Shown piece after piece: positions 21,024 to 21,106 of a stretch of DNA of 64,000 bases. How positions within the stretch are numbered: the first letter of the stretch is position 1; each line of letters begins with the position of its first letter. A program made the position numbers and the translations under genes. The notes under the pieces were generated by a model that made no database searches, had not been told where the DNA came from, and worked only from the letters and a program-made list of their open reading frames with translations. This stretch comes from Patescibacteria group bacterium (GTDB taxonomy: Bacteria; Patescibacteriota; Microgenomatia; UBA10105; UBA927): the NCBI GenBank assembly GCA_023379025.1, contig JAMCTH010000009.1, forward strand, positions 5,092-69,091. Direction: 5' to 3'.

Positions 21024-21106
21024 ATAACCTCCATGATGATGAAAATGAATTCCGTCTAGCGGAGGTTTATTCGTGGGATAAACAAACCTCCGCAAGGAGG
21101 TTTTTT
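21024..21106 (+). promoter_or_regulatory. attenuator-like leader: four mutually complementary segments (aacctcc / ggaggttt / aaacctcc / ggaggttt+U-tract) with an 8-codon Met-rich mini-ORF (MMMKMNSV, 21033-21059) between segments 1 and 2
   Basis: Seen in sequence: CCTCC 21027-31, GGAGGTTT 21061-68, AAACCTCC 21084-91, GGAGGTTT 21096-103 followed by T-run; GCAA (GNRA) loop in the last hairpin. Confidence 0.4.
21084..21106 (+). terminator. intrinsic terminator-like hairpin (AAACCTCC-GCAA-GGAGGTTT + TTT)
   Basis: 8-bp GC-rich stem, GNRA tetraloop, T-tract. Lies downstream of the 20650-20967 ORF and upstream of the 21124 gene. Confidence 0.5.

What the first reader, a model, noticed from the sequence alone, without database searches (positions are those of the whole stretch)
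21024..21106. Textbook-like four-segment transcription attenuator with a Met-rich 8-codon leader ORF upstream of an operon ending in metG
Segments CCTCC(21027-31), GGAGGTTT(21061-68), AAACCTCC(21084-91) and GGAGGTTT(21096-103)+T-run can pair 1:2, 2:3 or 3:4. The 3:4 pairing is a GNRA-looped terminator. A mini-ORF ATG ATG ATG AAA ATG AAT TCC GTC TAG (21033-21059) sits between segments 1 and 2, and its stop abuts segment 2. Ribosome stalling at Met codons would favour the 2:3 antiterminator. Completed translation would mask segment 2 and let the terminator form. The downstream same-strand genes run through methionyl-tRNA synthetase, so a Met-tRNA-sensing attenuation of metG is conceivable. The leader ORF has no evident SD, and the element may simply be the terminator of the upstream gene.
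Basis: partly seen in the sequence, partly recalled or inferred. Interest (0 to 1): 0.6.

Follow-up and report, generated by a model that had tools for sequence, protein, structure and literature searches.

The report
Methionine-codon leader attenuator replacing SAM riboswitch
A short leader in a Patescibacteria genome carries a tiny methionine-rich reading frame and switchable hairpins ending in a terminator, at the spot where related genomes have a SAM riboswitch, so it is probably a ribosome-read methionine sensor of a kind not yet described.

Summary
All four segments, the GCAA-looped terminator and the mini-ORF are in the sequence; only segment 1 is off by one base. The window is from a Patescibacteria (CPR) bacterium.

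The terminator (21084-21106) ends 17 nt before a 235-aa kinase-like gene. That gene is followed tightly by a cupin gene, metG and tatD.

In five other lineages the orthologous gene is preceded by a SAM-I-type riboswitch aptamer plus a terminator at the same place. So this position is a regulated leader of a Met/SAM-linked gene set, not just the end of the upstream gene.

The window has no known aptamer. Its closest orthologue (L044, 51% identity, 34% vs 53% GC) shares the same short leader: CATGATGATG, CTAGCGGAGGTT, then a different antiterminator and terminator with the same layout.

In L044 the Met codons are the last codons of a real upstream B3_4-domain gene. All ten homologues of that gene's clade end in (M/I)MM, then a few residues, then mostly GG and a stop.

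Masking by a modelled ribosome gives the expected switch. The best reading is ribosome-mediated attenuation on Met codons (confidence about 0.5), which would be a new variant of a known mechanism. Translation and Met response are untested. Segment 1 is not conserved, and metG is not the primary target.

The parts
20976..21004 (+). Candidate promoter: TTGCAA (20976-81), 17-nt spacer, TAATAT (20999-21004). It would start the transcript near 21011-21012, so the RNA would include segment 1.
   Evidence: Read. It matches 8 of 12 consensus positions, so it falls below the 9/12 cut-off of the scan. Orthologous SAM leaders have TTGACA-N17-TAnnAT at the equivalent place.
21017..21022 (+). Alternative -10 box GATAAT, 10 nt before ATG 21033. 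This would give a near-leaderless start of the mini-ORF, and segment 1 would then be largely untranscribed.
   Evidence: a -10 box matching at least 5 of 6 positions, 5-13 nt upstream, occurs at 10 of 35 long-ORF ATGs but at only 3% of all ATG triplets. ATG 21033 has one. Which promoter is actually used is unresolved.
21026..21032 (+). Segment 1, AACCUCC. It can pair with segment 2 (1:2) or with segment 4 (1:4).
   Evidence: No counterpart of the 1:2 pairing exists in L044.
21033..21059 (+). Leader mini-ORF AUG AUG AUG AAA AUG AAU UCC GUC UAG (MMMKMNSV*). The frame is open from 20994, so GUG 21015 or AUG 21021 could extend it to (V)IMITSMMMKMNSV*.
   Evidence: CATGATGATG is shared with L044. 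The run is conserved as (M/I)MM in 11 B3_4 protein tails.
21056..21068 (+). Conserved block CUAGCGGAGGUU (21056-21067), which overlaps segment 2, the 5' arm of the antiterminator (21060-21068).
   Evidence: A 12-nt exact match with L044 438-449. A collinear 12-mer plus 10-mer occurred in 0 of 3000 shuffles.
21060..21092 (+). Antiterminator hairpin (2:3): 9 bp between CGGAGGUUU and AAACCUCCG, -12.0 kcal/mol.
   Evidence: The analogous L044 hairpin (443-482) has -15.5 kcal/mol and a different sequence.
21084..21106 (+). Intrinsic terminator (3:4): AAACCUCC-GCAA-GGAGGUUU followed by a U-run; -11.4 kcal/mol.
   Evidence: It aligns with the terminators of six orthologous leaders.
21124..21831 (+). 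First structural gene: a 235-aa protein of unknown family with a protein-kinase-like fold.
   Evidence: No Pfam hit. Family of about 45 proteins. AlphaFold2 model with pLDDT 93.3. Weak Foldseek hits to RIO and other kinases, TM about 0.39.
21851..22225 (+). 124-aa ORF of unknown function. It aligns weakly with the C-terminal half of B3_4 proteins.
   Evidence: Gene call in L001. No Pfam hit. 22% identity in alignment A2.
22213..22575 (+). Cupin_2 protein gene.
22604..24151 (+). metG (methionyl-tRNA synthetase, 515 aa).
24199..25005 (+). TatD-family gene. The same order, kinase-like gene, then a middle gene (a 124-aa ORF here, a B3_4 gene in L010), then cupin, metG and tatD, is seen in L010.

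Best explanation
The stretch from about 21012 to 21106 is the 5' leader of an operon. The operon starts with a kinase-like gene and probably continues through a cupin gene, metG and tatD. The leader is a ribosome-mediated (leader-peptide type) transcription attenuator whose regulatory codons are methionine codons.

Proposed mechanism:
- RNA polymerase transcribes a tiny ORF (AUG AUG AUG AAA AUG ... UAG). It then transcribes a GGAGG segment (2), a CCUCC segment (3), and a second GGAGG segment (4) followed by a U-run.
- Segment 3 can pair with 2 (antiterminator) or with 4 (terminator).
- If Met-tRNA(Met) is plentiful, the ribosome runs to the stop codon that abuts segment 2 and covers it. Then 3:4 forms and transcription stops 17 nt before the first gene.
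- If Met-tRNA(Met) is scarce, the ribosome waits on the last Met codons and segment 2 stays free. Then 2:3 forms first and polymerase reads through.
- Without any ribosome, a transcript that includes segment 1 still terminates, through 1:2 plus 3:4 or through 1:4 plus 2:3.

What is shown: the sequence features, the competing pairings and their energies, their conservation in a second lineage, the conservation of the Met run in eleven related tails, and orthologous SAM-riboswitch terminators at the same position.

What is inferred: that the mini-ORF is translated, that ribosomes stall at the Met codons, that termination is efficient, and that metG is co-transcribed.
For: 1. Position. The U-tract ends 17 nt before ATG 21124 (0 nt in L044), so the gene can only be expressed by read-through.

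2. Orthologous regulation. Homologues of the 235-aa gene carry a promoter, a SAM-clan aptamer and a terminator. L004 hits SAM-I/IV at 49.7 bits, above gathering. L010, L048, L003 and L047 give full-length RF00162 matches at E 7e-5 to 1e-3, below the gathering score of 44.4. All seven terminators align just before the start codon.

3. Gene neighbours. They are metG, metK, ahcY and a Cys/Met PLP enzyme.

4. Closest orthologue. L044 (P0002, 51% identity; 34.5% GC against 52.9% for the window) shares CATGATGATG and CTAGCGGAGGTT in the same order. This occurred in 0 of 3000 shuffles. Its antiterminator (-15.5) and terminator (-14.7) have different sequences but the same overlap logic.

5. Translated context. 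In L044 the Met codons lie inside a real translated gene, a B3_4 protein, where a folded aptamer is implausible.

6. Conserved tails. All 10 clade homologues end in (M/I)MM, then 4-9 residues, then a stop; eight of these ten tails contain a GG run. No representative outside the clade, among the 150 best listed, has this tail.

7. Reading frame of GGAGG. Relative to the Met frame, it lies after the stop in the window, is read as GGA GGU in L044, and may be read as ACG GAG GUU in the ...KTEVLK tails. This points to an RNA-level constraint on GGAGG and a codon-level constraint on AUG.

8. Ribosome masking. In the window, with the A site on AUG 21039, AAA or AUG 21045, the terminator probability is 0.03-0.26. 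From AAU (or UCC, depending on the assumed footprint edge) onward it is 0.94. L044 shows the same switch at the third AUG with a +15 footprint edge.

9. SD-less initiation is the norm in this genome.
Against: - Only two leaders are available as DNA, so no real covariation test is possible.
- Segment 1 and the 1:2 pairing are not conserved.
- In L044 the outcome of the equilibrium model depends on the assumed ribosome footprint: +12 and +15 edges give different codons. If upstream RNA is left free, the terminator wins.
- Neither the promoter nor the start codon of the mini-ORF can be fixed in silico. L044 has no recognisable promoter close to the AUGs.
- The MMM...GG tail could be a feature of the B3_4 protein itself.
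- The 12-nt block CUAGCGGAGGUU is more conserved than base-pairing alone requires, and this is unexplained.
- Methionine starvation also limits initiation, which complicates a Met-codon sensor.
- Four other orthologues (L018, L046, L049, L065) have no leader at all.
- metG may have its own promoter.
Confidence: 0.5

Rival explanations
1. The leader is a direct RNA sensor, either a new small riboswitch or a binding site for a protein or tRNA. The conserved AUGAUGAUG and CUAGCGGAGGUU blocks would be recognition elements that decide between antiterminator and terminator. The apparent ORF would be incidental.
For: The two exact blocks are conserved across a large GC shift. The 12-mer is more conserved than pairing requires. 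Orthologous leaders are riboswitches, so replacement by another riboswitch class would be natural. AUGAUGA resembles a box C / K-turn half, and this produced weak snoRNA-family hits in Rfam.
Against: No Rfam family, including all SAM classes and the T-box, matched at E <= 10 in 20900-21200, and none matched L044 at E <= 0.05. No helix common to both sequences brings the two blocks together; the small local hairpins around GGAG differ. There is no CUGA, so no standard K-turn. In L044 and its 10 relatives the blocks lie inside a translated gene and AUGAUGAUG is always read as Met codons.
Confidence: 0.15
2. The mini-ORF and GGAGG block are an evolutionary relic of the 3' end of a B3_4 gene. Its MMM...GG tail would be a protein feature, left behind when the gene order changed. 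The terminator is then a constitutive, leaky terminator with no Met sensing.
For: In L044 and 10 homologues the motif is the C-terminus of a B3_4 protein. In the window, a possible B3_4-like remnant sits downstream of the kinase gene instead (weak).
Against: At 51% protein identity between the flanking genes and a GC difference of 18 points, a functionless relic should have decayed. Instead an intact start-to-stop ORF, an extra Met codon and perfectly complementary segments are kept. The residues between the B3_4 domain and MMM, and after MMM, vary while MM is invariant. No B3_4 representative outside this clade, among the 150 best listed, has the tail. That pattern fits an ORF extended into a leader better than an old protein motif.
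Confidence: 0.13
3. The hairpin at 21084-21106 is simply the intrinsic terminator of the upstream 105-aa membrane-protein gene (20650-20967). The other complementary segments and the mini-ORF are chance. The downstream genes would be expressed from leaky read-through or internal promoters.
For: The upstream gene has no other terminator before 21084. The hairpin plus U-run is a canonical terminator. CCTCC and GGAGG pentamers are common in this window, at 130 and 72 copies.
Against: The terminator lies 117 nt after the upstream stop and 17 nt before the next gene. Candidate promoters lie between the upstream stop and the hairpins. Orthologous loci with unrelated upstream genes have a terminator at the same place, behind a riboswitch or the same Met motif. 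The structure z-scores and the uniqueness of the pattern argue against chance.
Confidence: 0.12
4. The switch acts on translation: the hairpins hide or expose a GGAGG Shine-Dalgarno sequence for the downstream gene rather than controlling termination.
For: In L048, L047 and L044 the 3' arm of the terminator (GGGAGG, GAGAGG, GGCCGG) lies 7-8 nt before the start codon.
Against: In the window, GGAGG 21096-21100 is 23 nt from ATG 21124. Genes in this window almost never have an SD. The hairpin is followed by a U-run typical of termination.
Confidence: 0.05

Closest known systems
Classical leader-peptide transcription attenuators (trp, his, phe, thr, leu, ilv) and especially the pheST attenuator of E. 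coli, an aminoacyl-tRNA synthetase operon under attenuation (own knowledge; Rfam Phe_leader RF01859). Attenuators predicted upstream of trpS and leuS in Streptomyces (PMC1262725) also belong here.
   Same: A short ORF with a run of codons for one amino acid. Its stop lies next to the 5' arm of an antiterminator that overlaps a Rho-independent terminator placed just before the structural genes. An aminoacyl-tRNA synthetase for the same amino acid lies downstream.
   Different: The regulatory codons are Met, and no Met-codon attenuator turned up in three full-text searches or is known to me. The ORF has no SD, in a genome rich in leaderless genes. The anti-antiterminator (segment 1) is not conserved. 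In sister lineages the 'leader peptide' is the C-terminal tail of a full-length upstream protein. The only Rfam similarity to Phe_leader is a chance-level hit (18 bits, E 1.1).
SAM-I (S-box, RF00162) and SAM-I/IV (RF01725) riboswitch leaders
   Same: Same genomic position, same regulated gene family, and the same type of expression platform: a terminator ending in GGUUUUUU just before the start codon. The sequence UUGUUGGA after the U-run is shared with L004.
   Different: The window has no aptamer. About 110 nt of aptamer are replaced by about 50 nt holding the Met mini-ORF and the GGAGG segment. The signal would be Met-tRNA charging read by the ribosome, not SAM bound by RNA.
rph-pyrE intercistronic attenuator of E. 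coli (own knowledge)
   Same: In the L044-type loci, the ribosome finishing the upstream full-length gene would decide whether an intercistronic terminator forms.
   Different: pyrE senses UTP through polymerase speed, and a closely following ribosome prevents termination. Here the ribosome reaching the stop would favour termination, and the signal is codon-specific.
T-box leaders of Met genes in Firmicutes (own knowledge; Rfam RF00230)
   Same: They sense the charging state of tRNA(Met) and choose between an antiterminator and a terminator upstream of Met-related genes.
   Different: There is no Stem I, specifier loop or T-box sequence. The leader is far too short, and Rfam gave no hit.

Membership tests
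Ribosome-mediated (leader-peptide) transcription attenuator | Short ORF in the leader with a run of codons for the cognate amino acid | tested here: met
   4 Met codons of 8 at 21033-21059. The AUG triplet run is shared with L044 and kept as (M/I)MM in 11 related ORF ends.
Ribosome-mediated (leader-peptide) transcription attenuator | Rho-independent terminator immediately upstream of the structural gene | tested here: met
   An 8-bp stem, GCAA loop and U-run at 21084-21106, with -11.4 kcal/mol and z -3.6. It lies 17 nt before ATG 21124. L044 has an equivalent terminator.
Ribosome-mediated (leader-peptide) transcription attenuator | Antiterminator mutually exclusive with the terminator, with its 5' arm next to the leader ORF stop | tested here: met
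   The 2:3 helix pairs 21060-68 with 21084-92 (-12.0 kcal/mol). The L044 helix spans 443-482 (-15.5 kcal/mol) with a different sequence but the same overlap.
Ribosome-mediated (leader-peptide) transcription attenuator | Anti-antiterminator / pause hairpin (1:2) overlapping the regulatory codons | tested here: inconclusive
   The 1:2 pairing is present in the window (-12.2 kcal/mol). Segment 1 has no 1:2 equivalent in L044, where GGAAACGGCU pairs only with segment 4. Segment 1 may also not be transcribed if the GATAAT -10 box is the one used.
Ribosome-mediated (leader-peptide) transcription attenuator | The leader ORF is translated | not testable with these tools
   No SD is present. However, most genes here lack one, and a -10 box sits 10 nt upstream of the ATG as in leaderless genes of this window. 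In L044 the Met codons are part of a real gene.
Ribosome-mediated (leader-peptide) transcription attenuator | Ribosome position selects the structure: a stall at regulatory codons gives the antiterminator, and reaching the stop gives the terminator | tested here: inconclusive
   Thermodynamic masking reproduces the switch in the window. In L044 it does so only for some footprint assumptions. It is a model, not a measurement.
Ribosome-mediated (leader-peptide) transcription attenuator | Regulated genes belong to the metabolism or charging of the same amino acid | tested here: met
   metG lies downstream. Orthologues are under SAM riboswitches and sit next to metK, ahcY and metG. The function of the first gene is unknown.
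SAM-I / SAM-I/IV riboswitch (Rfam clan CL00012) | Aptamer matching the covariance model (four-way junction with conserved core) | tested here: not met
   No match at gathering score in the window, and none at E <= 10 in 20900-21200. For orthologous leaders, L004 reaches the gathering score (49.7 bits vs 41.1). L010, L048, L003 and L047 give full-length matches below it (32.5-36.7 bits vs 44.4, E 7e-5 to 1e-3).
Other SAM riboswitch classes (II, III/SMK, IV, V, VI, SAM/SAH) and T-box | Match to the family covariance model | tested here: not met
   None is listed among the 16 chance-level hits at E <= 10.
Kink-turn / box C/D-like element | RUGAUGA paired with CUGA through tandem sheared G-A pairs next to a Watson-Crick stem | tested here: not met
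   AUGAUGA is present, but the partner is CUAG and not CUGA, in both the window and L044. The snoRNA-family hits score only 12-18 bits.

The most novel reading that the evidence does not exclude
This is the first methionine-specific ribosome-mediated transcription attenuator. It would be a tRNA(Met)-charging sensor built from AUG codons, in a candidate-phyla-radiation bacterium with largely leaderless mRNAs. It has taken the place of a SAM-I riboswitch at an orthologous locus. In sister lineages the regulatory Met codons have been absorbed into the 3' end of the upstream B3_4 gene, so the last codons of a full-length protein would act as the leader peptide for the next gene.
Probability: 0.4. 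Interest if true: 0.75.

Novelty: new variant of a known kind. Interest (0 to 1): 0.62.

Why it matters
Leader-peptide attenuation is a textbook mechanism, but it is known for only a handful of amino acids. Methionine genes are thought to be controlled by riboswitches, T-boxes or repressor proteins.

A Met-codon attenuator would add a new specificity. It would also raise a question, because the same amino acid is needed to start translation of the leader.

The locus also offers a natural case of one sensor type (SAM bound by RNA) being exchanged for another (Met-tRNA read by the ribosome) on a conserved terminator platform.

It gives a rare view of gene regulation in Patescibacteria, which are mostly uncultured. 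It also links an uncharacterised kinase-like protein family, a free-standing B3_4 protein and a cupin protein to Met/SAM metabolism in CPR bacteria and DPANN archaea.

Tried and rejected
- **Rfam.** A search at gathering score on the whole window found nothing. A permissive search on 20900-21200 gave only chance-level hits: STnc370, snoRNAs, Phe_leader and His_leader, at E 0.3-10. No known family fits.
- **Repeated or mobile element.** The hairpin pattern is unique in the window.
- **Pattern scan of viral contigs** for ATGATGATG-N3-25-CTAGCGGAGG gave 15 hits. The seven loci inspected (covering every spacing class; the other eight share the 39-nt spacing of L050/L058) all lie in sequence that reads as coding, with no terminator downstream, in unrelated contigs. 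Rejected.
- **More leaders of the same type.** The genome and metagenome scans with the kinase-like family gave 33 loci, and none carries the motif. Look-ups of P0003 (contig cut 25 nt upstream), P0005, P0012 and P0018, plus locus L018, showed no leader or a leaderless promoter.
- **K-turn reading** of AUGAUGA...CUAG was rejected because there is no CUGA.
- **T-box reading** (UGGG in the 2:3 loop) was rejected. It is not conserved in L044 and does not fit the usual A73 discriminator of tRNA(Met) (own knowledge).
- **Derivation from the SAM-I aptamer by deletion.** No sequence similarity is visible apart from the terminator and the post-terminator UUGUUGGA.
- **First ribosome-masking model with free upstream RNA** gave implausible pairing across the ribosome in L044. 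It was redone with the upstream RNA masked.
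Full report
**1. The observation**

With flanks it is AACCTCC, 21026-32.
- Mini-ORF: ATG ATG ATG AAA ATG AAT TCC GTC TAG at 21033-59.
- Segment 2: GGAGGTTT at 21061-68.
- Segment 3: AAACCTCC at 21084-91.
- Segment 4: GGAGGTTT at 21096-103, followed by a T-run.
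- The 3:4 loop is GCAA.

Folding gives -12.2 kcal/mol for 1:2, -12.0 for 2:3 and -11.4 for 3:4. The z-scores run from -2.6 to -3.6. The 97-nt leader folds better than all 200 shuffles.

The hairpin pattern is unique in the window and absent from shuffles.

**2. Context**

The window comes from a Patescibacteria (CPR) bacterium (source name).

Upstream lie rmuC on the minus strand and a 105-aa membrane-protein ORF ending at 20967. Downstream on the plus strand, tightly spaced, are:
- a 235-aa gene with no Pfam hit (21124-21831);
- a 124-aa ORF;
- a cupin gene;
- metG (22604-24151);
- tatD.

The U-run ends 17 nt before ATG 21124. No promoter can fit in that gap, so the 235-aa gene must be transcribed through the terminator.

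**3. Comparative evidence that this is a regulated leader**

The 235-aa protein belongs to a small family of about 45 proteins found in CPR bacteria and DPANN archaea.

In five lineages the orthologue is preceded by three elements in order: a TTGACA-N17-TAnnAT promoter, a SAM-clan aptamer, and a hairpin-plus-U7 terminator ending 0-24 nt before the start codon.
- L004 hits SAM-I/IV at 49.7 bits, above the gathering score.
- L010, L048, L003 and L047 give full-length RF00162 matches at E 7e-5 to 1e-3. These are below the gathering score but at the expected place.

The terminators of all seven leaders align at the same position. The window and L004 even share UUGUUGGA after the U-run.

Neighbouring genes in these loci are metG, metK, ahcY, a Cys/Met PLP enzyme, a cupin gene and a B3_4 gene. 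L010 repeats the window's order with a B3_4 gene in place of the 124-aa ORF: kinase-like, B3_4, cupin, metG, tatD.

So the site is the leader of a Met/SAM-linked transcription unit. The idea that it is only the terminator of the upstream gene does not explain it.

**4. The window's leader is a different sensor, and it is conserved**

The window has no known aptamer. The closest orthologue is P0002 on L044, at 51% identity. That contig has 34.5% GC against 52.9% for the window.

L044 has the same short leader:

...CATGATGATG GAAAC GG CTAGCGGAGGTT AG..., then an antiterminator, a terminator, T7 and the ATG.

The collinear exact blocks of 10 and 12 nt occurred in 0 of 3000 shuffles.

The L044 antiterminator pairs GGAGGUUAGUAAUAU with AUAUUACCGGCCUCC (-15.5 kcal/mol). 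Its terminator pairs ACCGGCCU with AGGCCGGU (-14.7 kcal/mol). Both differ in sequence from the window's but overlap in the same way.

Segment 1 is not conserved. In L044 the stretch just after the AUGs (GGAAACGGCU) can pair only with segment 4.

**5. The Met codons are read as codons**

In L044 the three AUGs are in frame with a 149-codon ORF that runs off the contig end. This ORF is a real gene, a free-standing B3_4-domain protein.

All nine homologues found (50-83% identical, on different contigs), plus the one clade representative in the 1.8-billion-protein library, end in the same kind of tail: (M/I)MM, then 4-9 variable residues, then a stop. Eight of these ten tails contain a GG run. Examples are MMMEPASGG*, MMMDPVSGG*, IMMDPASGG*, MMMVPAGGG*, MMMQSAKGGGI*, IMMKSSGGGGS* and MMMEP(T/P)KTEVLK*.

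No representative outside the clade, among the 150 best listed, has the tail, and their matches stop at the end of the domain. The L010 B3_4 protein also lacks it.

In L044 the GG residues are encoded by GGA GGU, which is the GGAGG of segment 2. The TEV of the two odd tails is compatible with ACG GAG GUU, but I could not fetch the DNA to check this.

In the window GGAGG lies after the stop codon. So the AUG run keeps its reading frame everywhere, while GGAGG does not. This is what a codon-level constraint on AUG and an RNA-level constraint on GGAGG would produce. A folded aptamer inside a translated gene end is unlikely, so a ribosome-read signal is the natural interpretation.

**6. Can the mini-ORF be translated without an SD?**

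In this window almost no long ORF has an SD. Many have a strong -10 box a few nucleotides before the ATG.

A -10 box matching at least 5 of 6 positions, with a gap of 5-13 nt, precedes 10 of 35 long-ORF ATGs but only 3% of all ATG triplets. ATG 21033 has GATAAT at a gap of 10.

A second candidate promoter is TTGCAA-17-TAATAT at 20976-21004. It would include segment 1 in the transcript and could use GUG 21015 or AUG 21021, giving IMITSMMMKMNSV. Which promoter is used cannot be settled here.

**7. Mechanism model**

I masked the RNA covered by a ribosome and folded what remained up to segment 4.

In the window:
- With the A site on AUG 21039, AAA or AUG 21045, the terminator probability is 0.03-0.26 and the antiterminator probability is 0.65-0.86.
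- From AAU (or UCC, depending on the assumed footprint edge) through the stop codon, the terminator probability is 0.94.
- With no ribosome and segment 1 present, segment 4 is paired (0.84) through 1:4.

In L044 the third AUG gives the antiterminator with a +15 footprint edge, and later codons give the terminator. With a +12 edge the favourable codon shifts by one. At the first two AUGs, segment 4 can still pair with GGAAACGGCU.

The model therefore reproduces the attenuator logic in both leaders, but it is an equilibrium model and is sensitive to the assumed footprint.

**8. Rivals**

- *A direct RNA sensor.* This is not excluded, and the unexplained 12-nt conservation of CUAGCGGAGGUU speaks for some extra constraint. 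However, no shared helix joins the two blocks, no known family matches, and the blocks lie in translated sequence in eleven lineages.
- *A relic of a B3_4 gene end.* This fits the gene-order change but not the preservation of an intact ORF and perfect complementarity over this divergence.
- *A plain terminator.* This does not explain the orthologous riboswitch terminators.
- *Translational control through an SD.* This is unlikely in the window, because GGAGG lies 23 nt from the ATG and the genome is SD-poor.

**9. Comparison with known systems**

The element works like a classical leader-peptide attenuator. The nearest analogue is pheST, a synthetase operon under attenuation (own knowledge). 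Attenuators have also been predicted upstream of trpS and leuS in Streptomyces. The same paper lists methionine among the pathways regulated by riboswitches, not attenuators (PMC1262725).

Three full-text searches found no Met-codon attenuator. The L044-type arrangement, where an upstream full-length gene supplies the regulatory codons, recalls rph-pyrE (own knowledge) but uses the opposite logic.

I rate the element a new variant of a known kind.

**10. Verdict**

The attenuator interpretation is supported by comparative evidence. Met-codon sensing is the best-supported mechanism (about 0.5) but rests on two DNA sequences, eleven protein tails and a thermodynamic model.

The four-segment picture and the emphasis on metG need correction. 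The conserved core is Met codons, stop, GGAGG, antiterminator and terminator. The constant target is the kinase-like gene.

Interest is 0.62.

Noticed in passing
whole window, e.g. starts at 2772(-), 13159, 19542(-), 20602(-), 20650, 25782, 40450, 46046, 58391(-): Most long ORFs have no Shine-Dalgarno sequence. Many have a TATAAT-like -10 box 2-17 nt before the ATG, with a weak -35. This genome therefore appears to use leaderless or near-leaderless mRNAs widely.
   Followed up: partly
window 21124-21831 and homologues P0001-P0045: The 235-aa protein has no Pfam family, is confidently modelled (pLDDT 93.3), and has a protein-kinase-like fold with weak hits to RIO and other kinases. The family occurs in CPR bacteria and DPANN archaea. 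It is SAM-riboswitch-controlled in five lineages and sits next to metG, metK, ahcY, a cupin gene and a B3_4 gene. It could be an unrecognised small-molecule kinase of Met/SAM salvage.
   Followed up: partly
L022:1990-2124, L025:85-209, L027:2210-2344, L028:2865-2991, L029:1272-1406: Another group of homologues shares a different conserved leader. It has a hairpin plus T-run, then GGUUUCUC..GUGAUGA..N..CUGAUUAAAACC (a box C / box D-like, kink-turn-like arrangement closed by GGUUU/AAACC), just before a GGAGG-type ribosome-binding site. L022 and L025 gave no Rfam hit at E <= 0.05.
   Followed up: partly
L012 / L030 about 2850-2870 (Candidatus Nanoarchaeia contig): A mini-ORF ATG CTA ATG ATG ATG TAA (MLMMM*) lies about 90 nt upstream of the archaeal homologue and is followed by a T-rich stretch (AAATTTTTCTTTTATTT). 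ATGATGATG occurs only about once per 32 kb of strand in these loci, so a second Met-run uORF before the same gene family may not be chance.
   Followed up: no
window 21073-21081: A two-codon ORF, GUG GGA UAA, starts 7 nt after the GGAGG of segment 2, which is SD-like spacing. It lies inside the loop of the antiterminator. There is no equivalent in L044.
   Followed up: no
window 21851-22225: The 124-aa ORF between the kinase-like gene and the cupin gene has no Pfam hit. It aligns weakly (22%) with the C-terminal half of B3_4 proteins, at the position where L010 has a full B3_4 gene. It may be a truncated remnant.
   Followed up: no
L065 2390-2490: Upstream of metK in the genome carrying P0018 there is a sequence that looks by eye like a SAM-I-type aptamer (AUCAAGAGUGCGGGGAGGGAC...GGGUGCUAAAGC). 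It was not checked with Rfam. The kinase-like gene 2.5 kb away has only a leaderless-type promoter.
   Followed up: no
L018 655-700: An odd low-complexity run (CCTGCCTGCCGGCAGGCAGGCTAGTAGGCAGGCAGGC) lies in the intergenic region upstream of another homologue.
   Followed up: no
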